Notes: a model not told the origin generated them from the letters alone. A stretch of DNA of 64,000 nt from Candidatus Limnocylindria bacterium (GCA_038248895.1 JBBRWZ010000001.1:7760-71759), one strand, 5' to 3'. Counted from the stretch's first letter, positions 4,077 to 45,386 are shown. A program made the numbers and translations.

Positions 4077-6290
4077 CTAGCGGATGAAGAGCGGCGCCAG
4101 CACCAGGGTGATGGTCGCGAGCAGCTTCACCAGCACGTGCAGCGACGGACCGGCGGTGTCCTTGAAGGGATCGCCCACGGTGTCGCCGACCACGGCCGCG
4201 GCGTGGGCATCGCTGCCCTTGCCGAGCACGACGCCGTTCGCATCGGTCAGGTTGTTGGACTCGATGTACTTCTTCGCGTTGTCCCATGCACCGCCGCCGT
4301 TGTTGAGGACGGTTGCGAGCATGACGCCCGAGATGGTCCCGACCATGAGCATGCCGGCGATCGCCTCCGCGCCCAGCAGGAGGCCGACCACGATGGGCGT
4401 GGCCACGGCCACCACCCCGGGCAGGATCATCTGCCGCAGCGCCGACCGCGTGGTGATGTCGACGACCCGAGCGTAGTCGGGGCGCTGGGTGTAATCCATG
4501 ATGCCGGGCATCTCCCGGAACTGGCGGCGGACCTCGACAATGATCGCCTGGGCCGCGGTACCCACCGCGCGGATCGCGAGGCTGGAGAAGAAGTAGACGA
4601 GCATGGCGCCGATGAGGGCCGCGATGAAGACGCTCACGTCGGCGAGGTTGACGCTGGTCAGCAGCTTCGCTCCGTCGACCCCGGCCTCGATGCGTCGGCC
4701 CTGGATTAGGTTGACCTTGTCGATGTAGGCGCTGAAGAGGAGGAAGGCGGCGAGCGAAGCTGACGCGATGGCGTAGCCCTTCGTCAGGGCCTTCGTCGTG
4801 TTGCCGACCGCGTCGAGGCGATCGGTGATCTCGCGTGCGCCCTTCTCGGCGTGGCTGAACTCGGCGATGCCGCCGGCGTTGTCGGTGATCGGGCCAAACG
4901 TGTCCATCGCCAGGATGAACGCGGTCGTCATCAGCATCCCCATGGTGGCGACGGCGGTTCCGAAGATGCCGCCGACGTCCTTGCCGGAGGCATCGGTCAG
5001 GCCGGCCAGCGTCCCGAGCCAGTGGCTCGCGAAGAGCGCGATGCCAATGGTGATGGCGGTCAGGGCGGTCGTCTCATAGCCGACCGCGGTGCCGCTGATG
5101 ATGTTCGTCGCGGGGCCGGTGCGGCTCGCCTCGGCGATCTCACGGACCGGGCGGAACGTGCCGGCGGTGTAGTACTGCGTGATGTAGACGAAGGCGACGC
5201 TCGTCGCCAGGCCCACCAGGCCGGCGCCGAAGTAGTAGACCCACGTCGGCAGCGCCGTCCCCGGGTTGATCGTCTGCATCATGACCGACGTGGTGAGCGC
5301 CAGGCCGAGGACGCACAGGAGGGTCGTCACCCAGTAGCCGCGGTTGAGGATGTTCATGGGGTTCTCATCCTCGCGACCACGGATGAAGAACATCGCGACG
5401 ATCGTGGCCAGGAGGCCGAACGCGCGGACGACGAGCGGGAAGAAGATCCACGCCTCGGGATTCGGCCAGCCCGCCGAGTTGGCGATGTTGTACACCGCCA
5501 CGCCGAGGATCATGGCGCCGATGTTCTCGGCCGCGGTGCTCTCGAAGAGGTCCGCGCCACGGCCGGCACAGTCGCCGACGTTGTCGCCGACGAGGTCAGC
5601 CACGACGCCCGCATTGCGCGGATCGTCCTCGGGGATGCCCGCCTCGATCTTGCCCACCAGGTCGCTCCCCACATCAGCGGCCTTGGTGTAGATGCCGCCG
5701 CCGAGCTGCGCGAAGAGCGCCACGAAACTGGCGCCGAAGCCGAAGCCGACGATGAGGAACGGTGCCTGCGCCGGATTCGAGAAGCCGCCGAAGGCGGCGA
5801 AGATGGTGTAGACGCCGAGCAGGCTCAGCGCCACCACCAGGAAGCCGGAGACCGCGCCACCGCGCAGCGCCACCTGGACCGCGCGGACGAGGCTGTGCTG
5901 GGCGGCGGCCGCGGTGCGCAGGTTCGCCTTCACGCTGATGAACATGCCGATGATGCCCGAGGCCATGCTGCACGCTGCGCCGACGAGGAAGGCGACGCCG
6001 GTCATGATACCGAGCTGCACGCCGTAGACGTCGGTGTCGGCCACGGCCTGCGTCTCGACGATGGCGATCACCGCGCCGATCACGAGCGCGCCGCCAATGG
6101 CGAGCAGCGCGATCGTCTGGTACTGGCGCCTGATGAAGGCCACCGCGCCCTCGTAGATCGTGCCGGCGATTTCCTGCATCGCCGCGGTGCCGGTGTCGGC
6201 GCGCAGCACGTCGAGGGCGAGGTACACGGCGAACGCGACCGCGGCCAGGCCGGCGATCGGGATCACCAAGATGATGGGCTGGAGCTCCAT
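4077..6290 (-). CDS. hppA: Membrane-bound proton-translocating inorganic pyrophosphatase
   Basis: Multi-TM protein with H+-PPase motifs (GDNVGDCAGRGADLFES, the DNAGGIAE region). The true start is most likely the internal Met (MELQPIIL...) at 6290, preceded by a GGAGGA Shine-Dalgarno sequence. The ORF track extends it with an Arg-rich artefact. Confidence 0.85.
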   Translation of the reverse strand: MELQPIILVIPIAGLAAVAFAVYLALDVLRADTGTAAMQEIAGTIYEGAVAFIRRQYQTIALLAIGGALVIGAVIAIVETQAVADTDVYGVQLGIMTGVAFLVGAACSMASGIIGMFISVKANLRTAAAAQHSLVRAVQVALRGGAVSGFLVVALSLLGVYTIFAAFGGFSNPAQAPFLIVGFGFGASFVALFAQLGGGIYTKAADVGSDLVGKIEAGIPEDDPRNAGVVADLVGDNVGDCAGRGADLFESTAAENIGAMILGVAVYNIANSAGWPNPEAWIFFPLVVRAFGLLATIVAMFFIRGREDENPMNILNRGYWVTTLLCVLGLALTTSVMMQTINPGTALPTWVYYFGAGLVGLATSVAFVYITQYYTAGTFRPVREIAEASRTGPATNIISGTAVGYETTALTAITIGIALFASHWLGTLAGLTDASGKDVGGIFGTAVATMGMLMTTAFILAMDTFGPITDNAGGIAEFSHAEKGAREITDRLDAVGNTTKALTKGYAIASASLAAFLLFSAYIDKVNLIQGRRIEAGVDGAKLLTSVNLADVSVFIAALIGAMLVYFFSSLAIRAVGTAAQAIIVEVRRQFREMPGIMDYTQRPDYARVVDITTRSALRQMILPGVVAVATPIVVGLLLGAEAIAGMLMVGTISGVMLATVLNNGGGAWDNAKKYIESNNLTDANGVVLGKGSDAHAAAVVGDTVGDPFKDTAGPSLHVLVKLLATITLVLAPLFIR

Positions 6291-6374
6291 GGATCCTCCG
6301 CTGATGGGTCCCTCACGCACCGCGGCGACGATTGCGCGCGCGTGCGCAGAACCGGTCTGACACACGGAAACGCC

Positions 6375-6403
6375 GGCGGGAATGGCACGCATGCGTGCCC
6401 GCC
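6375..6403 (-). terminator. Palindromic hairpin (GCACGCATGCGTGC core flanked by GGCGGG/CCCGCC), followed on the minus strand by a GTTTCC tract. Putative terminator of the rpoN operon.
   Basis: Perfect 14-bp palindrome with flanking complementary G/C runs, located 86-114 nt downstream of the 6489 stop. Confidence 0.45.
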
Positions 6404-6488
6404 AGCGAGGCCGCGCCATGGTAGCCGCGCGCGGTGCGGACGGTCAACTTACGACGGCGCCGGCGGGCATGCGCCGCGCGGATCGGCC

Positions 6489-8591
6489 CTAGGGAAGCCA
6501 CCGCGGACGTGTTCCCCCCTCGGTGAGCCGAAGCCCCGAGCCCGAATCGAGATCGATGAGCCAGATGCCGGTCGGCACCCCATCACCCGATGCCCGCGCC
6601 ACGAGCAGCTTCCCCGTCTCCGGCGTGAATGCCACCCAGCTCGCGACGAGGGCGCCGTCACCGAGCAGGCGACCGCGGGCGCCGCCGCCGGCCGTCGTGA
6701 TCCAGATCGACCCGGCATCGTCGCCGCGCGGGAGCGTCACGTAGGCGATGCGACCACGATCGTCGACCGCGACACGGGCCGGCGCGTCGAACGGCGTCGG
6801 CGCCGGGTCGCGTGATCCGCGGAACAGCCGCAGCACGTCCTGGTCGGCGAGGTCGGCTGACGCCGGATCGAGCGGCTCGGCCGGGGTGCCCGGCTCGTGC
6901 CGCGGCAACTCCGCATCCGCGCGCGGCCCATCAAGCACGACGCCATCGACGAGGATGCCGGTCGAGTCCGGCAGCCACGAGATCGGCCCAGCCGCATCGA
7001 TCTCGGCGGTCGTCAGCCGGTCGGCGGGCAGCTCGACCACCGCGACCCGCCCGGCGGTGTCGACATACGCCAGCGCGCCGCCGTCCGGCGAGAACGCGGG
7101 TTCGCGGAGGAGTGGCGACGGCAATGGCTCGCCGCTGCCGGCGACGGACGGGCTGGGAGACCCCGTCTCACCGGTCAGCTCGCGCGGCGGCACGAGCCGC
7201 GTCGCATCGGCCCCCGCGACACCGCGCAGCCAGATCCCGAGGCCGCCGCCGGTCGCCGCATCGGCCCGCCCGAACGCAATCGTGCGGCCGTCGGGGCTGT
7301 ATGCGGGGTCGAACTCGAGGTTGGCCGCATCGGTGAGGACGCGCCGGTCGCGGCCGTCGACGAGCTGCTCGACGAGCTGGACGCCGTCACCAAGGACAAG
7401 TGAGCGCCCGTCCGGGGCGACGGCGAAATCGGTCACCGCCGACAGCTCCGCGGTCACCTGGCGCTGGTTGGTCCCGTCGGGATTCATCGCCCACACGTTG
7501 GCCACCCCGCCGCGTGGCGACAGGAAGACGATCTGGTTGGAGAGCGTCGTGCTCGGCGCGCCGGTCGTGAAGGTCCAGGTCAGCGGTGCGGCGAGGCCAC
7601 CACCACCATCGGCGCTCACGCCCGCGGCGAGGGTCACCTCGAACGTCGTGTTGGCGGGCAGGGTCGACGACGGCATGAACCTGAGCAACCGTGCGCCTCC
7701 CGCCCCGAGCGCCGCCGCTCCGGGCAGCGGCACCGCCTCGAGCGACCCGGGCACCGCCGGGTCGACGGTGAGCAGCGCGGCGTCGACGGAGTCCGGATCA
7801 AGCGGTCGGTCGAAGACGACGCCGATCACGGTGGTGCCGGCGATGCCCTCCACGCCGTCCGCGGGCAGGAGCTGGACGACCTCCAGGTCGGTGCGCGCGG
7901 TCACGAACGAGATGCGGAGCGCTGCGTCGAGCGGTGTGCCGGCCAGGTCGGTGGCGGTGGTGTCGATCTCGATGCGGTAGCGCCGGCCCGCCTCCAGTGG
8001 CTGTTCCGGGACGATGGTGAGCCGCTCACCGGACCAGCGCAGTGCGGCCGACGTGCGCGGCGTCAGCCGCAGCGCATCTTCCACCGACGCGGTGTCCATC
8101 AGGGTGGAGAAGGTGATGGTGAGCTCCGCATCGCGCGCCACCGCCGCGTCGCCATCCCCAGGGTCGGTGGCAGCCACGCTCGGTGAGCCGACCGTGGTGA
8201 ACGAGAAGGGATCGGCGGCGGCCTGCATCGTGTTCCCGGCCTCGTCGCGCGCTCCCGGGCCGATGGTGACGACGAATGACGACTGCAACGGCAGCGGATC
8301 CGCCGGCGTGAACGTGACCGTCGTCCCGCTCCAGCTGAAGCTGCCGGGCACCTTCGGCGCGATGCTGATCGCCGTCTCGGCTGATGCATGGTCGACCGTC
8401 TCGGAGTAGGCGACCTCGATGCTCGTCGTCGTGAGAGCGATCCCCGCGTCGCCGGCGAGGTGCTGCGTCAGGCCGACGCGGCCCACGACCGGCGGCCGCG
8501 AGTCGACCGTGCTGGCGAGATAGAGGATGCCGGAGAGAACGGCGGCGCCGACGAGAAGGACGACAGATGAGCGGAGCAGAACGCGGCGCAC
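6489..8591 (-). CDS. Large exported or membrane-anchored protein. N-terminal signal anchor, tandem bacterial Ig-like (Big/SbsA-like) domains, and a C-terminal TolB/WD40-like beta-propeller.
   Basis: 700 aa with an N-terminal hydrophobic segment. Repeated roughly 100-aa beta-rich units have the pattern TxxxPxxxxPL...TVTF. The C-terminal half carries repeated FSPDGRxxA-type blades typical of TolB-like propellers. The GTG start sits 12 nt after the rpoN stop, with a GGAG Shine-Dalgarno sequence. Confidence 0.6.
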   Translation of the reverse strand: MRRVLLRSSVVLLVGAAVLSGILYLASTVDSRPPVVGRVGLTQHLAGDAGIALTTTSIEVAYSETVDHASAETAISIAPKVPGSFSWSGTTVTFTPADPLPLQSSFVVTIGPGARDEAGNTMQAAADPFSFTTVGSPSVAATDPGDGDAAVARDAELTITFSTLMDTASVEDALRLTPRTSAALRWSGERLTIVPEQPLEAGRRYRIEIDTTATDLAGTPLDAALRISFVTARTDLEVVQLLPADGVEGIAGTTVIGVVFDRPLDPDSVDAALLTVDPAVPGSLEAVPLPGAAALGAGGARLLRFMPSSTLPANTTFEVTLAAGVSADGGGGLAAPLTWTFTTGAPSTTLSNQIVFLSPRGGVANVWAMNPDGTNQRQVTAELSAVTDFAVAPDGRSLVLGDGVQLVEQLVDGRDRRVLTDAANLEFDPAYSPDGRTIAFGRADAATGGGLGIWLRGVAGADATRLVPPRELTGETGSPSPSVAGSGEPLPSPLLREPAFSPDGGALAYVDTAGRVAVVELPADRLTTAEIDAAGPISWLPDSTGILVDGVVLDGPRADAELPRHEPGTPAEPLDPASADLADQDVLRLFRGSRDPAPTPFDAPARVAVDDRGRIAYVTLPRGDDAGSIWITTAGGGARGRLLGDGALVASWVAFTPETGKLLVARASGDGVPTGIWLIDLDSGSGLRLTEGGTRPRWLP

Positions 8592-8603
8592 GGGCTCCGC
8601 GGC

Positions 8604-10016
8604 CTAGTGGTGTCGCAGCCGGGCAGGCAGGATGTGCAGCTCGTCGCGGTACTTCGCGACGGTGCGGCGCGCGATCGCGATCCCTTCCTCGGCGAGCAGG
8701 TCCGCGATCTCCTGGTCGGACAGCGGGTGCGGCTGCTCCTCCGACTCGATGAACTTTCGAATCTGGTCCTTCACCCCGAGCGAGGCGGTGAAAAAGTGGC
8801 TGAACGGGACCACCTCGCCCGAAGGGATCATCACGTACTTCTCGGCGGTGGCGCGGCTGACCGTCGACTCGTGCATCCCGATCAGGTCGCCGACCTCGGC
8901 GCGCGTCAGCGAGACGAGGTGCTGCACGCCGTGGAGGAGGTACTCACGCTGCCGATCCGCGAGGCACTCGGCGATGCGCTGGATCGTGGCGCGACGACGA
9001 TTGATGTTGTCGATGAAGAACTTCGCTCGCCCGACGTACTCGCGTACGTGCTGCTTGTCCTGCTCCGTCGTCTCGCTCGCCCGCAGCTGGCTCGAGAGCG
9101 ACGAATAAATGGGCGTCACCTGCAGGCTGAAGCGGCGTGACTCGACGACCTCCACCTCCAGCTCACCGTCGACGGCCCGAATCAGCACATCGGGGCGGAT
9201 CAGGGTCCGGTGCCCGCGTCCGCTGACCGCGGCGGTGAAGGCGGCGGTCGGGTACGGATTGAGGCTCGACTTCACGAACTCCCAGGTCGCGACGACACTT
9301 GCCTGGTCCGTCTTGAGGGCCGATGCCACCTCCCGGAAGCGACGCTCGCCCAGCTCGGGGAGATGATCGGCGACAACCGCCTCCGCGATCTCCGGCACCG
9401 GCGTCTCACCACCCTCACGCAGCCACGCGATCTGCGCCAGCAGGCTCTCCACGATCGATCGGGAGCCGATGCCGATCGGCTCGATGCCGCGCATCGCGGA
9501 TCGCACCTGCTGCACCTGCTCGACCGATACGCCCGTCGCCGCGGCGATCTCTTCGTCGCTGTCGGTCAGAAAACCGTTCTCGTCGAGGGCGCCGATGACC
9601 TGGTCCGCGACGGGGTGCAGCTCGCGCGGCAGGATCGCGTGGAGGTTCCAGGTCAGGTGCTCCTCCAGCGTGAACTCGGCCTCGGCACGGGCGATGGGGT
9701 CGAACTCGTCTGCCTCGTCCCGCAGCCGCGGCTGGCTGTCCGGGGGCAGGTCGTCGACGGTCGCGGCATCCACATCCGCCTTGGCATCGCGATTCGGCAT
9801 GCACTCGGTGCAGTAGTTGCCGGTCACCGGCGACCCACAGATGGGACAGGCGCTCGTCTCGAGCATCTCGAGCGCGGGGTTCTCGTCCAGCTCCTGGCTG
9901 ATCGCCTCCTGGAGCTCGACCGAGCTCATCTGCAGGATGTAGTTGGCGGCGATCTGCTTGGGCGTGACCTTGACCTGCAGCGACGGGTTGAGCTGCTGGT
10001 TGAGCTCGAGCGACAT
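8604..10016 (-). CDS. rpoN: RNA polymerase sigma-54 factor, with an unusual Cys4 zinc-ribbon insertion after region I
   Basis: Region I (LELNQQLNPSLQVKV...ENPALE), a C-terminal HTH, and the RpoN box (ARRTVAKYRDEL) are all present. CPICG-x9-CTEC lies between region I and the core-binding domain. Confidence 0.85.
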   Translation of the reverse strand: MSLELNQQLNPSLQVKVTPKQIAANYILQMSSVELQEAISQELDENPALEMLETSACPICGSPVTGNYCTECMPNRDAKADVDAATVDDLPPDSQPRLRDEADEFDPIARAEAEFTLEEHLTWNLHAILPRELHPVADQVIGALDENGFLTDSDEEIAAATGVSVEQVQQVRSAMRGIEPIGIGSRSIVESLLAQIAWLREGGETPVPEIAEAVVADHLPELGERRFREVASALKTDQASVVATWEFVKSSLNPYPTAAFTAAVSGRGHRTLIRPDVLIRAVDGELEVEVVESRRFSLQVTPIYSSLSSQLRASETTEQDKQHVREYVGRAKFFIDNINRRRATIQRIAECLADRQREYLLHGVQHLVSLTRAEVGDLIGMHESTVSRATAEKYVMIPSGEVVPFSHFFTASLGVKDQIRKFIESEEQPHPLSDQEIADLLAEEGIAIARRTVAKYRDELHILPARLRHH

Positions 10017-10073
10017 GGAACCTCGCGGGCGATCATCTGGGCCGGCCCTCGGATCGGCGCGGCAGAAGGGCGA

Positions 10074-10760
10074 TTATACGGGGAGGGACTCGATCTCTCC
10101 CCGGAGCGCCTCGGCGGAGGGGGTCGCGTTGATGCGGCGCAGGACGCTGCCACGACCGCGCGCGCTGAAGCTCACCAGGCTGTAGCCACCCGGATCCTGG
10201 TTGAGACGTCGCCGGTAATCGGCCATGGGCCAGCCGAGGAGCTGCGCCAGGACGACGCGGTTGACGTGGTTGTGGGCGACCACGATCGCCACCCGGCTGC
10301 GATCGGCGGCCGCCCAGGCGGTGAGGCGCTCGACGACCGGCATGGCGCGAGCGGCGACGTCGGCACCCGACTCGCCACCGGGGGTGCAGGTGCGGTACGG
10401 GTCGGACAGCCAGCGACCGCGGAGCTCGGGATCACGGGCGAGCGACTCGTCCGCCGTCAGGCCGTCCCAGGCGCCGTAGTCGATCTCGAGCAGGCCGCGT
10501 TCCAGTTCGATGTGCTCCGACCCGACGCCCAGCACGCGCGCCACCGGTGCCATCGTCTCGCGGCAGCGGCGAGCCGGGCTGCTGACGAGCCGGAGCTCGT
10601 CGTGCGGCAGCTCGAGCAGCTCCGCGGTGAGCGACGCGGCAAGTGCTTCGGCCAGGGCACGGCCGGCATCGGCCAATGGAAGGTCGCGCGACTGGCCGAG
10701 GTTGCGTCCCGCAGCGCTGTCGGCGGTCGTGGCGTGACGGACGAGGAAGAGGGAGCCCAC
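10074..10760 (-). CDS. Histidine phosphatase family protein (phosphoglycerate mutase-like)
   Basis: N-terminal LVRHA catalytic His motif and a conserved internal His (VAHNHV). 228 aa. Its stop overlaps a TATAAT hexamer just upstream of rpoN. Confidence 0.7.
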   Translation of the reverse strand: MGSLFLVRHATTADSAAGRNLGQSRDLPLADAGRALAEALAASLTAELLELPHDELRLVSSPARRCRETMAPVARVLGVGSEHIELERGLLEIDYGAWDGLTADESLARDPELRGRWLSDPYRTCTPGGESGADVAARAMPVVERLTAWAAADRSRVAIVVAHNHVNRVVLAQLLGWPMADYRRRLNQDPGGYSLVSFSARGRGSVLRRINATPSAEALRGEIESLPV

Positions 10761-10869
10761 GTCAGGAGTCTACGGGCCGGCCGCCGGATCGGCCCCGGGA
10801 GGCTGCGTTATGCTGTCGCGACCCCGCCTCATCCACCCGCGCTCGAGCGCGCTGCCCCAGGGAGCCCCG

Positions 10870-11607
10870 ATGACGTACGCCCCCGCCGCGCACGACCGCG
10901 ACGACCCCGAGGAGACCCCGTCCCCGACGCGACGCGGCCTCGGCTGCGCGTTCGAGATCGTCGAGACGCTGGTCCTGACGCTGATCATCTACCTCGTCAT
11001 CCACAACTTCATCGCGCAGCCGTTCGAGGTCCGGATGAGCTCCATGACGCCGACCATCCTCGAGTCGGAGTACATCCTCATCGACAAGATCAGCCCACGC
11101 TTCGCCGATTTCAAGCGCGGCGACATCATCGTCTTCCAGCCGCCGGAGGGATACCGCCAGGAGGGCGACATCCCCTTCATCAAGCGGATCATCGGCCTGC
11201 CCGGTGACACGGTCCAGTTCATCAACGGCTCGGTCTGGGTCACACCGCCGGGCGGCACTGCCACCGAGCTCGACGAACCGTACGTCGCCCGTGCCGGCGG
11301 GGCGCCGGTGCCGACGCAGTGCGCTCCGGTTGACTGCACCAGCGAGTGGCTCGTCCCCGAGGGGGACTATTTCGCCATGGGCGACAACCGGGGGGCGAGC
11401 CAGGACTCACGCGTCTTCGGACCGGTGTCGCGCGACTCGATCATCGGGCGCGCCTGGCTCCGCTACTTCCCCCTCGACCGGTTCGGCTTCGTCGGCCGGC
11501 CGCCGGGTGGCTACGCCGGGCTCCCCGACGGCGTCACCAGCGGCGGCACCGGCGCCGCCCCGCGTCCGCTGGCCATCGGCCCGCTGCCCCGCGCCGCCAT
11601 CCCGTAG
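10870..11607 (+). CDS. lepB: Signal peptidase I
   Basis: N-terminal TM segment. Catalytic Ser motif SMTPTI, plus the box D/E motifs GDNRGASQDSR. Start chosen at the Met preceding the TM segment. Confidence 0.85.
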   Translation: MTYAPAAHDRDDPEETPSPTRRGLGCAFEIVETLVLTLIIYLVIHNFIAQPFEVRMSSMTPTILESEYILIDKISPRFADFKRGDIIVFQPPEGYRQEGDIPFIKRIIGLPGDTVQFINGSVWVTPPGGTATELDEPYVARAGGAPVPTQCAPVDCTSEWLVPEGDYFAMGDNRGASQDSRVFGPVSRDSIIGRAWLRYFPLDRFGFVGRPPGGYAGLPDGVTSGGTGAAPRPLAIGPLPRAAIP

Positions 11608-19725: not shown

Positions 19726-20994
19726 CTAGGGGTAGAGGCCTCGCAGCATGGTGGCCTCGGCGACGCGCGCCACCGCCACCATGTACGCGGCGGTCCGCAT
19801 GTCGACGCCGTGGCGCGTGCTCATCTCATGCACCGCGCCGAACGCCCGGTCCATGATCTCGCGCAGGCTCTCGTTGATCCGGTCCTCGGACCAGAAGAAG
19901 CTCTGCATGTCCTGCACCCACTCGAAGTAGCTCACCGTCACGCCGCCGGCGTTGCAGAGGATGTCGGGGATGAGGAAGACGCCGCGGTCGAAGAGGATCT
20001 CGTCCGCCTCCGGCGTGGTTGGGCCATTCGCCGCCTCGGCGACGACCTTGGCCTTGATGTTCGGCGCATTGTGACGGGTGATCTGGTTCTCGAGCGCGGC
20101 GGGGACGAGGATGTCGCAGTCGACCTCGAGGATCTCCCGGTTGCTGATATCCGTCGCGCGCGGGAAGCCGACGACGGTGCCGTGCTCCTGCTTCCAGGCG
20201 CCGACCCGCGCCGGATCGAGGCCGCCGGGGTCGTGGATCCCGCCGGTCGAGTCGCTGACCGCGACGATGCGCGCGCCCTCCGCGGCGAGCAGGGTGGCGG
20301 CGATGCTGCCGGCGTTGCCGTATCCCTGGATCGAGACCCGCGCGCCCTCGAGTGGCGTGCCCGCGGTGCGCGACCATTGTCGGAGCGTATACACCGCGCC
20401 GCGTGCGGTCGCCTCGTTGCGCCCGAGGGACCCGCCGATGGCGATCGGCTTGCCGGTGACGACGCCGGCGATCGTGTAACCGTTGTGCATGGAGTACGTG
20501 TCCATGATCCAGGCCATCGTCTGCGCGTTCGTGTTCACGTCCGGTGCCGGGATGTCACGGTCGGGGCCGATGAACGGGATGATCTCGGTGGTGAAGCGCC
20601 GCGTCAGTCCCTCAACCTCACGAATGGACAGCTTCTTGGGGTCAACGATGACGCCACCCTTGCCCCCGCCGTACGGGATGTTGACGACGGCGCATTTCCA
20701 GCTCATCCACATCGCCAGCGCGCGCACCTCGTCGATGCTGACATCCTGGTGGTACCGGATGCCGCCCTTCGCCGGACCGCGGCTGACATTGTGCTGGACG
20801 CGATAGCCGGTGAATACCCGGACGCTGCCGTCGTCCATCGTCACCGGGAAGTTGACCGTCAGCTCGCGCTGCGGGACGCGCAGGACGCGTCGCATGCCGT
20901 CGTCGAGGTCGAGTTTGTCGGCAGCGTGATCGAACTGCTGCTGGGCGACCGCCCAGATGTTCGGCGCCTCGGCGACGGGGTGTTTGCTGGCCAT
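19726..20994 (-). CDS. gdhA: Glutamate dehydrogenase (Glu/Leu/Phe/Val dehydrogenase family), copy 1
   Basis: 422 aa from the internal Met (MASKHP...). The catalytic-Lys GGGKGG region (PYGGGKGG) and a C-terminal Rossmann fold. A GGAGG Shine-Dalgarno sequence lies upstream of this Met. Confidence 0.9.
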   Translation of the reverse strand: MASKHPVAEAPNIWAVAQQQFDHAADKLDLDDGMRRVLRVPQRELTVNFPVTMDDGSVRVFTGYRVQHNVSRGPAKGGIRYHQDVSIDEVRALAMWMSWKCAVVNIPYGGGKGGVIVDPKKLSIREVEGLTRRFTTEIIPFIGPDRDIPAPDVNTNAQTMAWIMDTYSMHNGYTIAGVVTGKPIAIGGSLGRNEATARGAVYTLRQWSRTAGTPLEGARVSIQGYGNAGSIAATLLAAEGARIVAVSDSTGGIHDPGGLDPARVGAWKQEHGTVVGFPRATDISNREILEVDCDILVPAALENQITRHNAPNIKAKVVAEAANGPTTPEADEILFDRGVFLIPDILCNAGGVTVSYFEWVQDMQSFFWSEDRINESLREIMDRAFGAVHEMSTRHGVDMRTAAYMVAVARVAEATMLRGLYP

Positions 20995-21206
20995 GAGCCG
21001 CAGGTTGCCTCCAGTGATGCAGTCGACCCGACGCCTCTGCACGCCGTCTTGTCGTGATTCCAGGCGGAGGCGGGCCGGGTCGCGGACGGGATGGAATTCT
21101 AGCGCAGCGGAGCGATGCGTCACCCGTACCGATGGGCGGGCGACTTCCGGCGACGGCGCAGGACTCCAGCCGGGGGCGTGGCGCGAGGCGGGAGCCGGAT
21201 GGCGGC

Positions 21207-21250
21207 TAGCGCCGAGCCGCACGGCGCGTAGCACCGAGCCGCATGGCGCG
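21207..21250. repeat. Two tandem 22-nt direct repeats (TAGCGCCGAGCCGCACGGCGCG / TAGCACCGAGCCGCATGGCGCG) in the 384-nt gdhA upstream region
   Basis: 19 of 22 positions identical, immediately adjacent. Read directly from the sequence. Confidence 0.6.
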
Positions 21251-21305
21251 GCCCGACAACCGGTAGGCGGTTGAGCGCTTATTTGGTCACGCTCGCGCGT
21301 CGCGC

Positions 21306-21322
21306 CGGGGGTTGAACCCCCG
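21306..21322 (+). other. Perfect 7-bp stem / 3-nt loop hairpin (CGGGGGT-TGA-ACCCCCG) followed by TTT. A second, imperfect G-rich hairpin lies about 20 nt downstream.
   Basis: Read directly. Located between the thiolase stop and the gdhA start. Its role (terminator or attenuator) is unclear. Confidence 0.4.
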
Positions 21323-21378
21323 TTTGGCTGCCCACGCGTGACGGACCGGGGGTTCGATCCGGGCATGGTTGCCGGCAG

Positions 21379-37783: not shown

Positions 37784-38247
37784 GCGACCCCACCGACACA
37801 CGAGCTCGTCGTCACTGCATCAAGTGCGGCCGCGACATCGGCCCGGACGAGTCGATCTGCGGCGTCTGCAACCGCGCCGGCATGGTGACGCCGTCCGCTT
37901 CGCAGTACCACGGCACCATGGTGGCGGCCATCATCGCCGGCGTCGCGGCACTGGCGATCGCGGCGAGCGTCGCGATGCGCGGCGTGGGGCCGTTCTCGGC
38001 CGAAGTGGTGTCGAGCGCACCGGCGACGGGAGCCGTGCTCGACGTCAGGGTCGCCGTCAGCAACGAGGGACAGCGCACCGGCCGCGCCAGGTGCCAGCTC
38101 GCCGCCTACGACGGCTCGGGACGGACGACGCAGACCCGCACGTTCGTGACGGTCGAGGTCGCCGGCGGACAACGCGTCGAGATCGACGAGTTCATCCCGG
38201 GCATCACCGCCGCCCCTGCCCGGGTGGCCGTGACGTGCCGGGGTTAG
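37780..38247 (+). CDS. Small zinc-ribbon membrane protein (hypothetical)
   Basis: N-terminal CIKCG-x11-CGVC zinc ribbon, one TM helix, and a beta-rich C-terminal domain. GTGA overlap with the DUF1684 stop. Confidence 0.5.
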
Positions 38248-38777
38248 GCGGCGAAGCGAAGCTCCACCTCGACGAGGCCACTGGCGAGCGAGCGATCGGT
38301 GACGAGCGCCCAGGCCTCGTGCGACAGGTCCACGACGCGCTCGTCGGCGGTGCCCCAGTAGCATTGGCACCAGTCGACGACCGGTAGCTCGACGCAGCGG
38401 TCAGCGCAGACGGTGATTGTTCCGTTGACGGTCCCGTTGTAGCGGCCGCCGAGGGCGCCCGGCAGCGCCACGACGGGCTGACCCATCCAGCCCGCCGTGC
38501 CGCGATAGTTGCTGGCGATGCCGCTCACCGCGCGATACGCGGGCGGCGGCGCAGTGGTCGCCGCTGGCGGCGCAGTGGTCGGCGCCGGTGACGCGACGGT
38601 CTCCGGGGTGCCCCGTGCGGCGAGAACCTGCTCCTCCACGACAGAGCGATCCAGCGGGGCGGATCGACGGGCGAGCAGTCCTACGTCGCGCGCCTGCGCG
38701 ACGAGCCCTCCCGTGACGGCCGTGAGCGCGAGCCCGACGGCCAGAGCGGCGCACAGCGCCGCGATGCGGTGCCTCAA
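38244..38777 (-). CDS. Double-psi beta-barrel (RlpA/expansin-like) exported protein
   Basis: C-terminal domain GIASNYRG...[21 protein letters not shown]...[12 protein letters not shown] fits the DPBB fold. Start placed at an internal TTG, with a GGAG Shine-Dalgarno sequence, ahead of the signal/TM segment. The longer track ORF would overlap the TPM gene. Confidence 0.5.
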
Positions 38778-38970
38778 TGGTGACTCCGAGTGCGGGATTG
38801 GGGCGATCGCCGCCAGTCCGGGCGCGGGCGTTTGTCGCGCGTCGACGGAGGCTTCCCCCGCGATCGCCGGTGGCGCAGGTGGGCGCCACGGTGCATCTGC
38901 AAGTACAGATGGGTCGCAAGAAGGGTGCCAGCCGGCGGCGCATGACGCAAACCGCGTATCCTCGGGCGCG

Positions 38971-40677
38971 ATGCGTCGCCACCGCCTGGCCCCCCTCCTC
39001 GCCGTCGTCGCAGCGTGCCTCGCGAGTGCCGCCGTCGCCGCCGGGCCACCCTTCCCGAATCCTGTCACCGACGAGGCGGTGTACGACACCGCCGGCGCAC
39101 TGGCCTCGGGCACCGTCACCGCCGTCGAGAAGCGAATCGACGAGATCGAGACCCGTTCCGGCGCCGAGGTCGTCGTCTACACGCAGCTCGACCCGTTCAT
39201 CACTGAGTCGGAGAACCTGGCGGCGGCGCGCGCCCTGATGGACCAGTGGGGCATCGGCCGGTCTGGCTTCGACGATGGCCTCGTGATGATGATCGGCCTC
39301 AACGACGACCTCGTCCATGGCAAGGTCAGCCTCTTTGCGGGCGCGGGCTACAAGTCGGCCTACCTCGACGAGGACGCGCTCAAGGGCATCATCGACCAAG
39401 ACTTCGTGCCGCCGGCGCGCAACGGCGACCTCGACAACGCCGTCCTCTTCACGATGGAGGCGATCGACCGCGCAACGACGCCGGAACGTCGCGACGCGTT
39501 GAATCGGGCGCGGCAGCTCAACGCCGTGGTGGGGCTCATCGGCGGGCCGCTGGCGCTGCTCGTCGTCGCCGGGGGCGCCTACCTGAAGTGGCGACGCGAG
39601 GGCGACGATCCCGACATCCTCGACAGCCCGTCGATCCTCGCGGCGGGCCCCCCGGCCGGGATGACCCCCGCGCTGGCAACCGTCGTCCGCGAGGGCCGCG
39701 CGACGCGCCATAGCCTCAACGTCACGCTGCTCGAGATCGCGAGCACCGGCCGCATCGGCTTCGCCAACCTCGACCAGGTACGGCAGGCACGGTCGGACGA
39801 GAAGGCCGATCCGGAGACCGATCCGGCGATCCATCTCCTCCGGGCCGCTCCATCGTCGCGCGCCCTCTCGCCCGTTTCGAGTCGGGCGTACGACAGCATT
39901 CGGCAGCTCGCGGGCGGCAACGAACGGCTCAGCCGGTCGCGCCTCTGGAAGCTCAACGACGCGCTGGGCGAGACGTCGGAGCAGCTCGAGCGCGAGTCGG
40001 TGCGGCTCGGCTGGCTGACACGCGAGCCGACGCTCGCGATCCATGGTGCTTCGCTCGTCGCCGGGCTCTGGCTGGCAGGCGGCATCGGCGCCGGTGCGCT
40101 CGGCATCTTTTTGCCGTCGAGCGGCCTCGTGCTGGTCGGGATCGGGCTCGGCATCGGTGCGCTCATCGCGTTCGGCTTCGCGCGCGCGATGAGCAAGCGA
40201 ACGACGCAGGGCGCCTACGCCGATGCGATGCTCAAGGCCTTTCGACGCACGCTGAAGCTCACCATGGAGCAGTCGCGCTCGATGGAACAGGTCACGGCCA
40301 ACGAGGAGGTGCGCCTGCTGGCCGATACCCCGGACAAGGCGGTGGTGTGGGGCATCGCGCTGGGGCTCTACGCGGAGCTGCGGGGCGTGCTCGAGCGGAC
40401 GCTCGCCGATGCCCCCGAGGCGGTGCGCTCCGCGTCAACGTACTACCCGATGTGGCTGGGCTCGTCGAGCGGCTCGACGTACAACGCGGCCGACACCAGC
40501 ATCGCCCACGGGGGCGGCGGCATCTTCTCGAGCTCCCCCGTCCCCGACATCGGCGGCATGTTCAACGCGCTCGGCAGCATGGGCAACACGCCACCGTCCA
40601 CCGCGAGCTCGTCGGGGGGCGGTGGGTTTTCCGGCGGTGGCTCGTCGGGCGGCGGGGGCGCGAGCGGCAGCTTCTGA
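38971..40677 (+). CDS. TPM-domain (DUF477) plus DUF2207-like membrane protein with a Gly-rich C-terminal tail
   Basis: Signal peptide, a TPM phosphatase-like domain (AVYDTAGAL...VVVYTQ), two or more TM helices, and a low-complexity tail ([20 protein letters not shown]). Confidence 0.6.
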
Positions 40678-44129: not shown

Positions 44130-45386
44130 GTGCCGACCACGCGAGCAGCCAACCTGTGGACCATCGCCCAGCGCCGCCTCGACGCCGCCGCGGAGCGGCT
44201 GGAGCTCGACGACGGGATGCGGCGGGTGCTCCGCGCACCGAAGCGGGAGCTGACGGTCACCTTCCCGGTGACCCGCGACGACGGCAGCGTCGCCGTCTAC
44301 ACCGGACACCGCGTTCATCACAACGTCAACCGCGGTCCGGCCACCGGCGGCATCCGCTACGTGCCGGACCTCACCCTCGACGACCTGCGCGCCCTCGCCA
44401 TGGCGAATACGTGGAAAGCCGCGCTGGTCCAGATCCCGTTCGGTGGCGCGATGGGCGGGGTACGCGTCGACCCGAAGCAGCTCTCCGTCACCGAGCGCGA
44501 GGGGATGACGCGCCGCTTCGCGACCGAGATCGGACCGATCACCGGGCCGGACCGTGATATCCCGTCGCCGGACGTGAACACCGGCTCGATCACCATGGCC
44601 TGGATGATGGATACCTACTCCATGCATCGCGGCCATACCGTCCCCGGATCGGTGATCGGCAAGCCGCTCGCCATCGGCGGATCGGAGGGCCGGCGCGAGG
44701 CGACCAGCCTGGGGGCAGTGACGGCGCTCGAGGCGGTGGCGCGCACCACCGGCATCCAGCTGGTCGGGGCGCGCGTCGTCATCCAGGGCTTCGGGCGCGT
44801 CGGCACCATCCTCGCGCGACGCCTCGACCGGCTCGGGGCGCGCATCGTGGCGATCGCGGACGACAGCAACGGCGTGACCAGAGCGGACGGGATCGATGTC
44901 GACGCCGCGGTGCGGTGGATGCGAGAGCGCGACGCCATCACCGACCTCGCCGACACCGAGGCGGCTGACAAGGACTCCCTCCTCGAGCTGCCGTGCGACA
45001 TCCTCGTCTTCGCCGGCCTCCAGGGCCAGCTCGACGGCGAGAACGCGTCACGCGTCGGTGCGCGGCTCGTGGCCGAGGTCGCCGGCGGCGCGGTGTCGCC
45101 CGAGGCGGACGTCGCCCTCTCCGACCGCGGCATCCCGGTGATCCCCGATATTCTCTGCTCGGCCGGCGGCCTGGTCGTCGGCTACTTCGAATGGGTGCAG
45201 GACATGCAGGCGTTCTTCTGGAATCGGGAGCAGGTCGCGAAGGAGCTCGAGCAGGTGATGGAGCGGGCGGTCGCGTCGGTCTATGACCTCGCCAAGCGCA
45301 GCCGCGTCACGCTCCGCGAGGCAGCCGAGATGGTCGCCGTCGAACGCGTGGCGCAGGCGACCCAGCTGCGCGGGCTCTACCCGTAG
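44130..45386 (+). CDS. gdhA: Glutamate dehydrogenase, copy 2 (paralog of the 19726-20994 gene)
   Basis: 418 aa with the same family motifs (FGGAMGG catalytic region, Rossmann fold). Roughly 55-60% identical to copy 1 by eye. Confidence 0.9.
   Translation: MPTTRAANLWTIAQRRLDAAAERLELDDGMRRVLRAPKRELTVTFPVTRDDGSVAVYTGHRVHHNVNRGPATGGIRYVPDLTLDDLRALAMANTWKAALVQIPFGGAMGGVRVDPKQLSVTEREGMTRRFATEIGPITGPDRDIPSPDVNTGSITMAWMMDTYSMHRGHTVPGSVIGKPLAIGGSEGRREATSLGAVTALEAVARTTGIQLVGARVVIQGFGRVGTILARRLDRLGARIVAIADDSNGVTRADGIDVDAAVRWMRERDAITDLADTEAADKDSLLELPCDILVFAGLQGQLDGENASRVGARLVAEVAGGAVSPEADVALSDRGIPVIPDILCSAGGLVVGYFEWVQDMQAFFWNREQVAKELEQVMERAVASVYDLAKRSRVTLREAAEMVAVERVAQATQLRGLYP

What the first reader, a model, noticed from the sequence alone, without database searches (positions are those of the whole stretch)
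6489..10760. Sigma-54 with a Cys4 zinc-ribbon insertion, in a probable mycothiol-producing actinobacterium, co-transcribed with a 700-aa exported Ig-like/beta-propeller protein
rpoN is unambiguous: region I, the HTH, and the RpoN box are all present. Sigma-54 is absent from most Actinobacteria, yet this window also carries an MshC-like ligase, a class I LysRS, and MeaB, which are all actinobacterial hallmarks. Region II is replaced by CPICG-x9-CTEC, a zinc ribbon. rpoN lies 55 nt downstream of a histidine-phosphatase gene, and the two may be co-transcribed. It is translationally coupled, with a 12-nt gap and a GGAG Shine-Dalgarno sequence, to a large secreted protein carrying tandem Ig-like domains and a TolB-like propeller. 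A hairpin with a T-tract terminates the unit at 6375-6403. No bEBP (NtrC-type activator) lies in the window. The canonical rpoN neighbours hpf, ptsN, and lptB are absent.
Basis: partly seen in the sequence, partly recalled or inferred. Interest (0 to 1): 0.65.

Follow-up and report, generated by a model that had tools for sequence, protein, structure and literature searches.

The report
Chloroflexota sigma-54 with zinc knuckle
This is a genuine sigma-54 gene from a soil Chloroflexota bacterium (class Limnocylindria, not an actinobacterium) whose protein carries a conserved four-cysteine zinc knuckle found in a whole branch of sigma-54 factors, and the same window holds a conserved sigma-54 promoter driving a small secreted protein.

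Summary
The sequence features are real, but the claim that made them surprising is wrong. rpoN (8604-10016, minus strand) is a bona fide sigma-54. Its closest relatives, and the whole five-gene neighbourhood, belong to Chloroflexota of the class Ca. Limnocylindria. At least 169 species-level genomes there carry this rpoN. The "MshC" gene fails the MshC cutoff.

The Cys4 motif is CxxC-x8-CxxC (residues 57-72), not x9. It sits directly after region I and takes the place of the first part of region II. The acidic remainder of region II is retained. All 120 close homologues have the motif, as do 123 of 150 diverse representative clusters. Named members include Limnocylindria, Ktedonobacterales, Anaerolineae, Dehalococcoidia and Armatimonadota. 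E. coli sigma-54 has no cysteine in this region, and I found no paper describing the module.

rpoN has its own conserved TATAAT box and is tightly joined to the Big_5/PD40 gene. The "terminator" is a conserved hairpin downstream of the hppA promoter.

New result: a conserved -24/-12 promoter at 38916-38930 (28 of 33 orthologous loci; 1.3 expected by chance) drives a secreted double-psi beta-barrel protein.

The function of the knuckle is inferred, not shown. I rate this a new variant of a known kind, of moderate interest.

The parts
10074..10760 (-). Histidine-phosphatase superfamily gene (228 aa) upstream of rpoN
   Evidence: PF00300 E=4e-41. Conserved upstream of rpoN in about 70 loci at 57-72% identity.
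10073..10078 (-). TATAAT -10 box of a dedicated rpoN promoter; it overlaps the HisPhos stop codon (TAA 10074-10076)
   Evidence: It is the only TATAAT on either strand of the window. TATA[AC]T occurs 24-53 nt upstream of the rpoN ATG in most of the 63 of 74 loci that have it, and most of the remaining loci have close variants.
8604..10016 (-). rpoN, sigma-54 (470 aa)
   Evidence: TIGR02395 296.9 bits against cutoff 277. Pfam AID, CBD and DBD all match. PDB sigma-54 chains match at E=1e-49.
9864..10001 (-). Region I (activator-interacting domain), residues 6-51, with the positive-to-negative charge switch retained
   Evidence: PF00309 44 bits against cutoff 23.8. Net charge is +1 for residues 1-31 and -7 for residues 32-56; clade means are +0.7 and -6.2.
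9801..9848 (-). Cys4 zinc knuckle CPICGSPVTGNYCTEC, residues 57-72 (C57, C60, C69, C72)
   Evidence: Present in 120 of 120 close homologues, in the clade at 52-54% identity and in 123 of 150 representative clusters. C57, C69 and C72 are invariant and C60 is at least 90% conserved in 40 full-length proteins of 28-44% identity. It has a fixed 16-aa length. Pfam DZR hits are sub-threshold. AF2 pLDDT is about 58-66.
9681..9800 (-). Remainder of region II, residues 73-112: acidic disordered linker ending in the conserved DEADEFDPIARAE block (RII.3-like)
   Evidence: pLDDT below 50 for residues 73-113. Net charge -7; the linker varies from 31 to 51 aa in the clade. D106 is invariant and P107 is at least 90% conserved.
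8613..9050 (-). DNA-binding domain with HTH and RpoN box (ARRTVAKYR)
   Evidence: PF04552 E=2e-38, residues 323-468. RpoN-domain PDB chains also match.
8592..8603 (-). 12-nt junction gccgcGGAGccc between the rpoN stop codon and the GTG start of the next gene
   Evidence: The junction is 3-27 nt in the large majority of loci.
6489..8591 (-). 700-aa envelope protein: N-terminal hydrophobic anchor, three Big_5 Ig-like domains, PD40/TolB-like propeller repeats
   Evidence: PF13205 E=1e-45 with 3 stretches and PF07676 E=2e-9. Conserved directly downstream of rpoN at 42-66% identity, but absent from the clade at 52-54% identity.
6418..6447 (-). Sigma-70-type promoter TTGACC-18-TACCAT for hppA
   Evidence: It is the only promoter-like site in 6200-11000; 0.1 are expected by chance. 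A promoter is conserved at this place across loci (TTGACC...TACCAT or TGCTAGAAT).
6371..6407 (-). Conserved hairpin CGCUGGCGG-[variable inner hairpin]-CCGCCGGCG followed by UUUCC. It is the 5' stem-loop of the hppA mRNA and a likely stop for read-through from rpoN-Big5/PD40
   Evidence: Conserved in 55 loci with an invariant outer stem. MFE -34.3 kcal/mol, z=-2.2. No Rfam match. Fails the canonical T-tract criterion.
4077..6290 (-). H+-translocating pyrophosphatase hppA; the true start is the ATG at 6290, after GGAGGA
   Evidence: PF03030 E=4e-244. Linked downstream of rpoN in both Limnocylindria clades.
38916..38930 (-). Sigma-54 promoter TGGCAC-ccttc-TTGC (-24/-12), 138 nt upstream of the DPBB gene
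   Evidence: It is the only match in the window. The equivalent element is present in 28 of 33 orthologous metagenomic loci, all on the gene strand; 28 hits against 1.3 expected. The -24 and -12 blocks are 90-100% conserved and the spacer about 40-50%.
38244..38777 (-). Sigma-54-controlled gene: 177-aa secreted protein with a signal anchor, a Pro/Thr linker and a C-terminal 4-Cys double-psi beta-barrel domain
   Evidence: Coding-type GC profile .74/.59/.85. An identical protein is on record from the 99-kb contig, and the family has 921 members, some labelled Limnocylindria or Chloroflexota. Foldseek matches include Streptomyces papain inhibitor 5ntb at E=1.3e-4, bacterial expansin structures (D1 is their DPBB domain, from my knowledge) and kiwellin. 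No Pfam hit.

Best explanation
The window comes from a soil Chloroflexota bacterium of the class Ca. Limnocylindria. Its rpoN encodes a functional, enhancer-type sigma-54.

Transcription unit. rpoN is transcribed from its own sigma-70-type promoter (TATAAT at 10073-10078). It is co-transcribed with a membrane-anchored Big_5/PD40 envelope protein. The unit ends at a GC-rich hairpin that is also the 5' stem-loop of the next gene, hppA.

Promoter specificity. The protein recognises canonical GG-N10-GC promoters. One such promoter is conserved across the class and lies in the window. It drives a small secreted double-psi beta-barrel protein.

The variant. This sigma-54 belongs to a large, so far undescribed structural variant. 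In it the N-terminal part of region II (RII.1 in E. coli) is a fixed 16-residue CxxC-x8-CxxC knuckle, which most likely binds one zinc ion.

Inferred function of the knuckle. It is probably a small, mechanically stable fold placed between the activator-threaded region I and the acidic linker that lies in the RNA polymerase cleft. There it would do two things:
(i) fill the downstream-DNA channel as RII.1 does, helping to keep the closed complex inactive;
(ii) act as a hard backstop that prevents the intrinsically processive bEBP ATPase from unfolding sigma-54 beyond region I.

What is shown: the identity, the taxonomy, the conservation, the operon signals and the promoter. What is inferred: zinc binding and the role as channel plug and backstop.
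For: Identity:
- TIGR02395 is above its cutoff and all three Pfam domains match.
- PDB sigma-54 chains match at E=1e-49.

Taxonomy:
- 169 species genomes carry a relative. The best 80 are labelled almost entirely Chloroflexota or Limnocylindria, and the five-gene synteny is shared.

Knuckle:
- The four Cys are invariant or nearly so across 28-44% identical proteins.
- They are present in 120 of 120 and 123 of 150 proteins in the two surveys.
- The module has a fixed 16-aa length, whereas the flanking linker varies from 31 to 51 aa.
- It gives sub-threshold DZR/Zn_Ribbon_1 matches.

Retained sigma-54 logic:
- The region I charge switch, the acidic region II and the conserved D106-P107 block are all present.

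Own promoter and operon:
-.

Functional sigma-54 specificity:
- A conserved TGGCA[CT]-N5-[CT]TGC occurs upstream of the orthologous gene in 28 of 33 loci, against 1.3 expected.
- The same contigs carry the Cys4 rpoN, judged by matching contig lengths of 894,509, 86,887 and 584,127 bp.

Mechanistic frame from the literature:
- The bEBP threads about 30 residues of region I and must halt, although it is processive enough to unfold the whole sigma-54 when the full complex is absent (PMC11839083).
Against: - No metal or structure data exist. The AF2 confidence for the knuckle is only moderate (pLDDT 58-66).
- No zinc-ribbon Pfam model reaches its gathering score.
- The E. coli-type charge switch that is proposed to halt the bEBP is retained here, so a second stop is not obviously needed.
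- No bEBP was found in the window or within 10 kb either side of rpoN in 80 genomes. Whole genomes could not be searched, so activator dependence is inferred only from the intact region I.
- Co-transcription and termination are inferred from spacing and conservation, not from RNA data.
Confidence: 0.55

Rival explanations
1. The Cys4 site is a regulatory switch, not a passive structural element. Oxidation of the thiols, or loss of zinc, would unfold the knuckle. That would change how region I and region II inhibit the polymerase, or mark sigma-54 for degradation. The sigma-54 regulon would then respond to redox or metal stress.
For: The four cysteines are strictly conserved over a deep clade. 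Cys4 zinc sites act as redox switches in other transcription systems, for example the ZAS anti-sigma factor RsrA (my own knowledge, not tested here). A zinc-ribbon protein, FlgZ, controls RpoN stability in trans in H. pylori (PMC3372290). The validated target is a secreted protein with four conserved cysteines.
Against: Most Cys4 ribbons are purely structural. No thiol or redox gene is linked to rpoN in the conserved neighbourhood. No data bear on reactivity.
Confidence: 0.15
2. The knuckle is an RNA-polymerase docking module analogous to the N-terminal zinc ribbon of TFIIB/TFB. It would bind a surface of the core enzyme, near the dock or RNA exit or on the clamp, and anchor the following linker that reaches into the cleft.
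For: The order zinc ribbon, then flexible acidic linker, then a segment in the RNA-exit path (RII.3-like DExDP block) parallels the order ribbon, B-reader/linker, core of TFIIB (architecture). The review notes that RII.3 and the TFIIB linker occupy equivalent space, and that the TFIIB ribbon sits where the sigma-54 CBD binds (PMC5095919). One family member gave a weak Zn_Ribbon_TF hit at E=0.007.
Against: The TFIIB-type hit is far below threshold and was seen in only one of ten sequences. In sigma-54 the RNA-exit site is already occupied by the CBD. The resemblance is one of order only and would have to be convergent.
Confidence: 0.1
3. The knuckle is a lineage-specific decoration with no specific mechanistic role beyond local folding or protease resistance of an otherwise disordered, dispensable region II.
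For: Region II is described as poorly conserved and largely non-essential in E. coli (PMC5095919). A sub-clade uses a different Cys pattern, CxGDC-x6/7-CPYC, which suggests tolerance.
Against: The four Cys and the exact 16-aa length are invariant across proteins that share only 28-44% identity, while the adjacent linker varies freely. That indicates strong purifying selection on the module itself.
Confidence: 0.2

Closest known systems
Canonical sigma-54 (RpoN) of E. coli / Klebsiella pneumoniae (e.g. PDB 8F1I, 5NWT)
   Same: Region I, core-binding domain, ELH-HTH and RpoN box all align over residues 7-468. The region I charge switch and an acidic region II are retained. Promoters are of the GG-N10-GC type.
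   Different: The segment of E. coli region I and II aligned has no cysteine. Here the RII.1-equivalent segment is a 16-aa CxxC-x8-CxxC knuckle. The gene neighbourhood (HisPhos, Big_5/PD40, hppA) replaces the proteobacterial lptB-rpoN-hpf-ptsN arrangement.
TFIIB/TFB N-terminal zinc ribbon (Pfam PF08271)
   Same: A small Cys4 ribbon precedes a flexible linker that enters the polymerase cleft or RNA-exit path. It is a general initiation factor.
   Different: The protein family is unrelated. No significant profile match was found (best E=0.007 in one of ten sequences). The position within the holoenzyme is unknown.
FlgZ / HP0958 (DUF164 zinc-ribbon protein) of Helicobacter pylori
   Same: A CxxC...CxxC zinc ribbon functionally tied to sigma-54. 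The cysteines are needed for RpoN accumulation (PMC3372290).
   Different: FlgZ is a separate protein acting in trans, and its cysteine pairs are 18-26 residues apart. Here the ribbon is built into sigma-54 itself, with an 8-residue spacing.
Sigma-70 region 1.1 / sigma-54 RII.1 as occupants of the downstream DNA channel
   Same: The element follows the N-terminal inhibitory region and is flanked by acidic sequence. The proposed role is to block DNA entry until activation.
   Different: Region 1.1 and RII.1 are helical or acidic and metal-free. The module here is near-neutral (mean charge -0.2) and Cys4-based.
Secreted double-psi beta-barrel proteins (Streptomyces papain inhibitor 5NTB; bacterial expansin EXLX1 domain 1)
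   Same: The sigma-54-controlled 177-aa protein shares the DPBB fold (Foldseek E=1e-4 to 1e-3) and is exported.
   Different: Sequence identity is only 16-24%, and there is no Pfam match. It has no expansin D2 domain. Its activity is unknown.

Membership tests
Sigma-54 (RpoN) family | N-terminal activator-interacting region I | tested here: met
   PF00309 matches residues 6-51 at 44 bits against cutoff 23.8.
Sigma-54 (RpoN) family | Core-binding domain and C-terminal DNA-binding domain with HTH and RpoN box | tested here: met
   PF04963 E=9e-36 and PF04552 E=2e-38. ARRTVAKYR is present. RpoN-domain PDB chains match.
Sigma-54 (RpoN) family | Full-length equivalog score above the curated cutoff | tested here: met
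   TIGR02395 scores 296.9 bits against a cutoff of 277.35.
Sigma-54 (RpoN) family | Cognate -24 GG / -12 GC promoters in the genome | tested here: met
   TGGCAC-N5-TTGC at 38916-38930. It is conserved in 28 of 33 orthologous loci, against 1.3 expected.
Sigma-54 (RpoN) family | Partner bEBP (AAA+ protein with GAFTGA, PF00158) encoded in the genome | not testable with these tools
   None was found in the 64-kb window, in 80 loci of about 20 kb or in 46 metagenomic loci.
Zinc ribbon / zinc knuckle (Pfam DZR PF12773, Zn_Ribbon_1 PF13240) | Two CxxC pairs at ribbon spacing, conserved | tested here: met
   CxxC-x8-CxxC. C57, C69 and C72 are invariant and C60 is at least 90% conserved.
Zinc ribbon / zinc knuckle (Pfam DZR PF12773, Zn_Ribbon_1 PF13240) | Profile score above the gathering threshold | tested here: not met
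   The best DZR score is 23.8 bits against 27.3. Zn_Ribbon_1 scores 21.3 against 25. I therefore describe it as a Cys4 knuckle and do not file it in a Pfam family.
Zinc ribbon / zinc knuckle (Pfam DZR PF12773, Zn_Ribbon_1 PF13240) | Predicted beta-hairpin knuckle fold | tested here: inconclusive
   AF2 gives short strands at residues 49-68, but pLDDT is only about 58-66.
Zinc ribbon / zinc knuckle (Pfam DZR PF12773, Zn_Ribbon_1 PF13240) | Binds one Zn(II) | not testable with these tools
   This needs metal analysis of the protein.
   rpoN, S26, HisPhos, Big_5/PD40 and hppA all match Chloroflexota / Ca. Limnocylindria MAG contigs at 42-92% identity with the same gene order.
   It scores 373.6 bits against a cutoff of 485.1. 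The same protein passes CysRS TIGR00435 (390.1 against 340).
Intrinsic (Rho-independent) terminator | GC-rich stem-loop | tested here: met
   Hairpin at 6371-6407. The 64-nt context folds at -34.3 kcal/mol, z=-2.2. It is conserved in 55 loci.
Intrinsic (Rho-independent) terminator | Run of at least 5 T in 8 nt directly after the stem | tested here: not met
   The tail is UUUCCGUG. The scan found no terminator in 6200-11000.
Double-psi beta-barrel (DPBB) fold, for the sigma-54 target protein | Structural similarity to solved DPBB proteins | tested here: met
   Foldseek probability is 1.00 to 5ntb, 9ms4, 3d30, kiwellins and designed DPBB proteins, with E=1e-4 to 1e-2. Model pLDDT is 74 overall and 90 or more in the core strands.

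The most novel reading that the evidence does not exclude
The Cys4 knuckle could be a functional control point of enhancer-dependent transcription in a whole branch of bacteria (Chloroflexota, Armatimonadota). In one version it is a zinc-stabilised mechanical stop that sets how far the bEBP ATPase can thread sigma-54. In the other it is a redox- or zinc-sensitive latch that lets the cell switch the sigma-54 regulon with thiol or metal status. A more extreme version is also not excluded: these genomes may lack classical bEBPs altogether, in which case the knuckle would be part of a different activation route.
Probability: 0.25. Interest if true: 0.7.

Novelty: new variant of a known kind. Interest (0 to 1): 0.42.

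Why it matters
Sigma-54 is the one bacterial sigma factor that needs an ATPase to open DNA. Current structural work on E. coli and Klebsiella proteins shows that the ATPase threads region I and must then stop, while region II occupies the polymerase cleft.

A large natural clade in which the region I / region II boundary is a fixed, probably zinc-bound fold is a ready-made experiment on two open points. The first is what limits threading. The second is what the 'dispensable' region II does.

The finding also gives a first handle on sigma-54 biology in Limnocylindria, a soil class known here only from metagenome-assembled genomes. That handle is a conserved promoter and its target, a secreted DPBB protein. 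It fits the proposal that sigma-54 controls the cell exterior (PMC3162934).

The original reason for interest, sigma-54 in an actinobacterium, does not hold.

Tried and rejected
- An exact look-up of the rpoN product in the contig index found nothing, although an identical protein is in the protein collection. I used the search for related loci instead.
- Rfam has no family for the hppA leader hairpin.
- A search for -24/-12 motifs in 1.35 Mb around rpoN showed no enrichment. My first relaxed pattern wrongly required A/T after TTGC, whereas the validated promoters have G/T.
- After correcting the pattern, the rpoN loci gave 17 hits against 8.3 expected. The recurrent ones, near position 6100 on the minus strand, are antisense inside a conserved coding region and read GCTGC rather than TTGC. 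I discounted them.
- A TGGCATG-N4-CTGCAT element about 15 nt upstream of the rpoN GTG in L073 and L075 could indicate autoregulation. It is seen in only two related loci, so I left it as a note.
- GAFTGA/Walker A scans found only out-of-frame or coincidental matches, for example GGAYTGA inside the DPBB protein.
- My first translation of the 38244-38777 ORF was off by one base and was corrected.
- My GC3-based gene call had masked this ORF behind a spurious 5' extension of the plus-strand TPM gene.
- Five literature searches for a cysteine or zinc module within sigma-54 found none. This is absence from an open-access library, not proof of novelty.
- I could not measure what fraction of all sigma-54 proteins carry the knuckle. 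The representative search was seeded with the knuckle itself.


Full report
**What is at the coordinates**

The minus strand carries three genes: a histidine-phosphatase gene (10074-10760), rpoN (8604-10016, 470 aa) and a 700-aa gene (6489-8591).
- rpoN matches the three Pfam sigma-54 domains: AID at residues 6-51, CBD at 111-304 and DBD at 323-468.
- It passes NCBI's equivalog model TIGR02395 (296.9 bits against a cutoff of 277).
- It aligns over residues 7-468 with solved E. coli-type sigma-54 chains (E=1e-49).
- The 700-aa protein has three Big_5 Ig-like domains, PD40/TolB-like repeats and an N-terminal hydrophobic anchor.
- The rpoN stop and the next GTG are 12 nt apart, with GGAG between them.
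- The HisPhos-rpoN gap is 57 nt.

The details that need correcting are listed below.

**The organism is not an actinobacterium**

- The 120 best protein matches to rpoN (75-100% identity) that carry names are called Ca. Limnocylindria or Chloroflexi, apart from three odd MAG labels.
- In a collection with one genome per species, 169 genomes encode a relative. The best 80 are almost all labelled Chloroflexota, Limnocylindria or Chloroflexia.
- tblastn shows that the whole block is shared by about 70 of these genomes at 42-92% identity. The block is signal peptidase S26 (divergent), HisPhos, rpoN, Big_5/PD40 and H+-pyrophosphatase.
- Ca. Limnocylindria is a class of Chloroflexota.
- Sigma-54 in 'some Chloroflexi' was reported in 2011 (PMC3162934). 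A contemporaneous survey lists RpoN in 4 of 13 Chloroflexi species (PMC3372290).

The 'actinobacterial hallmarks' do not discriminate:
- Class I LysRS and MeaB are present.
- The 'MshC-like ligase' (56453-57721) passes the CysRS cutoff and fails the MshC cutoff.

**The Cys4 module**

The motif is CPICGSPVTGNYCTEC (C57, C60, C69, C72), i.e. CxxC-x8-CxxC. It begins six residues after the ENPALE end of region I.

Conservation:
- It is present in all 120 close homologues.
- It is present, as CPLCGNPLTGRVCLTC, in a second Limnocylindria-type clade at 52-54% identity.
- An exhaustive HMMER search of 1.84 billion representative proteins with residues 1-130 returned 408 clusters at E<=1e-3.
- Of the 150 clusters listed, 123 have CxxC-x8-CxxC (a few with 6-11 residues between the pairs) at the same place. 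Most of the others are fragments or frameshifted pieces. A few have a different four-Cys pattern, CxGDC-x6/7-CPYC.
- Named members include Ktedonobacterales, Anaerolineae, Dehalococcoidia, unclassified Chloroflexota and Armatimonadota.
- In an alignment of 40 full-length proteins sharing 28-44% identity with the window protein, C57, C69 and C72 are invariant and C60 is at least 90% conserved.

Anatomy:
- The module has a fixed length of 16 residues (14 in two sequences) and is near-neutral.
- The following linker varies from 31 to 51 residues and is acidic (mean -7.3). It ends in a conserved DExDP..AR block.
- Region I keeps the positive-to-negative charge switch (+0.7, then -6.2).

So region II is not replaced. 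Only its first part is a Cys4 knuckle.

Comparison and limits:
- The aligned E. coli region I and II segment has no cysteine.
- The isolated segment gives only sub-threshold matches to generic zinc-ribbon families (DZR up to 23.8 bits against 27.3).
- The AlphaFold model is confident for the CBD and DBD, moderate for the knuckle (pLDDT 58-66) and disordered for residues 73-113.
- Five literature searches found no description of such a module in sigma-54.

**Transcription signals around rpoN**

- A CC[C/G]TATAATC box lies mostly 24-53 nt upstream of the rpoN start in the 63 of 74 loci that have it. Most of the rest have near variants such as TATCAT or TAGAAT.
- In the window the box is at 10073-10078 and overlaps the HisPhos stop codon. 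It is the only TATAAT on either strand of the 64-kb window.
- rpoN therefore has its own sigma-70-type promoter. Read-through from HisPhos is possible but not required.
- The rpoN-Big_5/PD40 junction is 3-27 nt in most loci, which supports co-transcription.
- No canonical terminator exists in 6200-11000.
That hairpin has an invariant 9-bp outer stem (CGCUGGCGG/CCGCCGGCG), is conserved in 55 loci and is followed by UUUCGUGUG.
- The hairpin lies a few bases downstream of a conserved sigma-70-type promoter, TTGACC-18-TACCAT at 6447-6418. This is the only such site in the region, with 0.1 expected.
- The hairpin is thus the 5' stem-loop of the hppA mRNA. It may also stop transcripts coming from rpoN-Big_5/PD40. 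It has no Rfam match.

**Sigma-54 is functional here: a conserved promoter and its target**

- The window has a single TGGCAC-N5-TTGC match, at 38916-38930 on the minus strand.
- It lies in a 193-nt divergent spacer, 138 nt upstream of a 177-aa minus-strand ORF (38244-38777). A spurious extension of the opposite-strand TPM gene had hidden this ORF.
- The ORF is real. An identical protein is on record from the 99-kb contig. The family has 921 members, some named Limnocylindria or Chloroflexota.
- Three hits have contig lengths equal to those of contigs that carry the Cys4 rpoN.
- In 46 metagenomic loci encoding relatives, 28 of the 33 with enough upstream DNA have TGG[CT]A[CT]-N5-[CT]TGC at the equivalent place, all on the gene's strand.
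- That is 28 hits in 120 kb against 1.3 expected. The -24 and -12 blocks are 90-100% conserved, while the spacer is about 40-50% conserved. This is the pattern expected of a true sigma-54 promoter.
- The product has a signal anchor, a Pro/Thr linker and a four-Cys C-terminal domain. The predicted fold is a double-psi beta-barrel. It is closest to the Streptomyces papain inhibitor and to bacterial expansin structures.
- A secreted protein as target agrees with the idea that sigma-54 controls the cell exterior (PMC3162934).

**How it most likely works**

Shown:
- It is a canonical sigma-54 in domain content and promoter specificity.
- It has its own promoter and is fused in an operon with an envelope protein.
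- It belongs to a deep clade with a strictly conserved Cys4 knuckle at the region I / region II boundary.

Inferred:
- The knuckle binds zinc.
- In E. coli-type holoenzymes RII.1 fills the downstream DNA channel, and the rest of region II runs through the template and RNA paths (PMC5095919).
- The bEBP threads about 30 residues of region I and then halts. Yet it is processive enough to unfold all of sigma-54 outside the full complex (PMC11839083).
- A compact metal-stabilised fold 25 residues beyond the halt point is well placed to serve as channel plug and as mechanical backstop.
- I give this composite reading about 0.55. Most of the uncertainty is in the functional role.

Rivals:
- a redox or zinc switch (0.15);
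- a TFIIB-like docking ribbon (0.1);
- a selectively maintained but mechanistically unspecific stabiliser (0.2).

The retained charge switch argues that the knuckle is not the only stop signal.

**What could not be settled**

- No bEBP gene lies in the window, within 10 kb either side of rpoN in 80 genomes, or in the 46 target loci. Whole genomes were out of reach, so activator dependence rests on the intact region I.
- The share of all sigma-54 proteins that carry the knuckle is unknown, because the wide search was seeded with it.
- Zinc binding, the transcription starts and the operon boundaries need experiments.

**Verdict**

The surprising part of the finding, sigma-54 in an actinobacterium, is refuted. 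What remains is a well-supported and apparently undescribed structural variant of sigma-54 that is widespread in Chloroflexota and Armatimonadota, plus a newly identified conserved sigma-54 promoter and target. I classify it as a new variant of a known kind, of moderate interest.

Noticed in passing
window 6362-6447 (- strand); L001-L072, same position between Big_5/PD40 and hppA: A conserved promoter is followed within about 10 nt by a hairpin with an invariant 9-bp outer stem and a variable inner hairpin, then UUUCGUGUG, about 60-90 nt before the hppA start. The distant clade (L073, L075, L077-L079) has a different hairpin plus a T-run at the same place. There is no Rfam family. It could be an mRNA-stabilising 5' stem-loop, an attenuator, or a shared terminator.
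   Followed up: partly
window 56453-57721 (+): A 422-aa CysRS-like protein matches only positions 11-375 of the 466-position cysS model, so it lacks the C-terminal anticodon-binding part, as MshC does. It passes the cysS cutoff and fails the MshC cutoff. It may be a truncated CysRS paralogue of unknown role in a Chloroflexota genome.
   Followed up: partly
window 38894-38911 (- strand); L081-L120, just after the -12 element: An inverted repeat directly follows the sigma-54 -12 element (window CATCTG-tacttg-CAGATG; other loci TGCGATCC-gac-GGATCGCA). The structure is conserved but the sequence is not. It may be the 5' hairpin of the transcript or an operator.
   Followed up: no
L073 5055-5071 and L075 3333-3349 (+): In the Limnocylindria clade at 52-54% identity, a TGGCATG-N4-CTGCAT element lies about 15 nt upstream of the rpoN GTG start. 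It might indicate sigma-54 autoregulation with a near-leaderless mRNA. It was seen in only two related loci.
   Followed up: no
L073, L075, L077-L080 versus L001-L071: The rpoN-hppA linkage is older than the operon. The distant clade lacks HisPhos and Big_5/PD40 and instead has a small reverse-strand ORF between rpoN and hppA.
   Followed up: partly
P0200, P0249, P0259, P0269 (sigma-54 representatives): A sub-clade replaces CxxC-x8-CxxC with a different four-cysteine pattern, C-x-G-D-C-x6/7-C-P-Y-C, at the same position after region I.
   Followed up: no
L011, L012, L036, L041, L045, L063, L065 (record titles): Contigs carrying the Limnocylindria-type rpoN synteny block are labelled Angelobacter, Binatia, Steroidobacteraceae or Conexibacteraceae in their MAG records. 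These are probably mis-binned or mis-classified.
   Followed up: no
window 38509-38970 (+): The long plus-strand ORF 38509-40677 is spurious in its first 154 codons. The TPM/DUF2207 gene starts at the ATG at 38971 with a signal peptide. The extension hid the minus-strand DPBB gene and the promoter spacer.
   Followed up: yes
window 19726-21366 (-) and 44130-45386 (+): There are two glutamate dehydrogenase paralogues of the archaeal/halophile GdhA type in one 64-kb window. The first has an N-terminal extension of about 130 aa in the ORF as called.
   Followed up: no
window 45878-48877 (-): A 999-aa STAND-type regulator (AAA_16, TPR/MalT-like, LuxR-family HTH) is the only large ATPase-type regulator in the window. 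It is not a bEBP.
   Followed up: no
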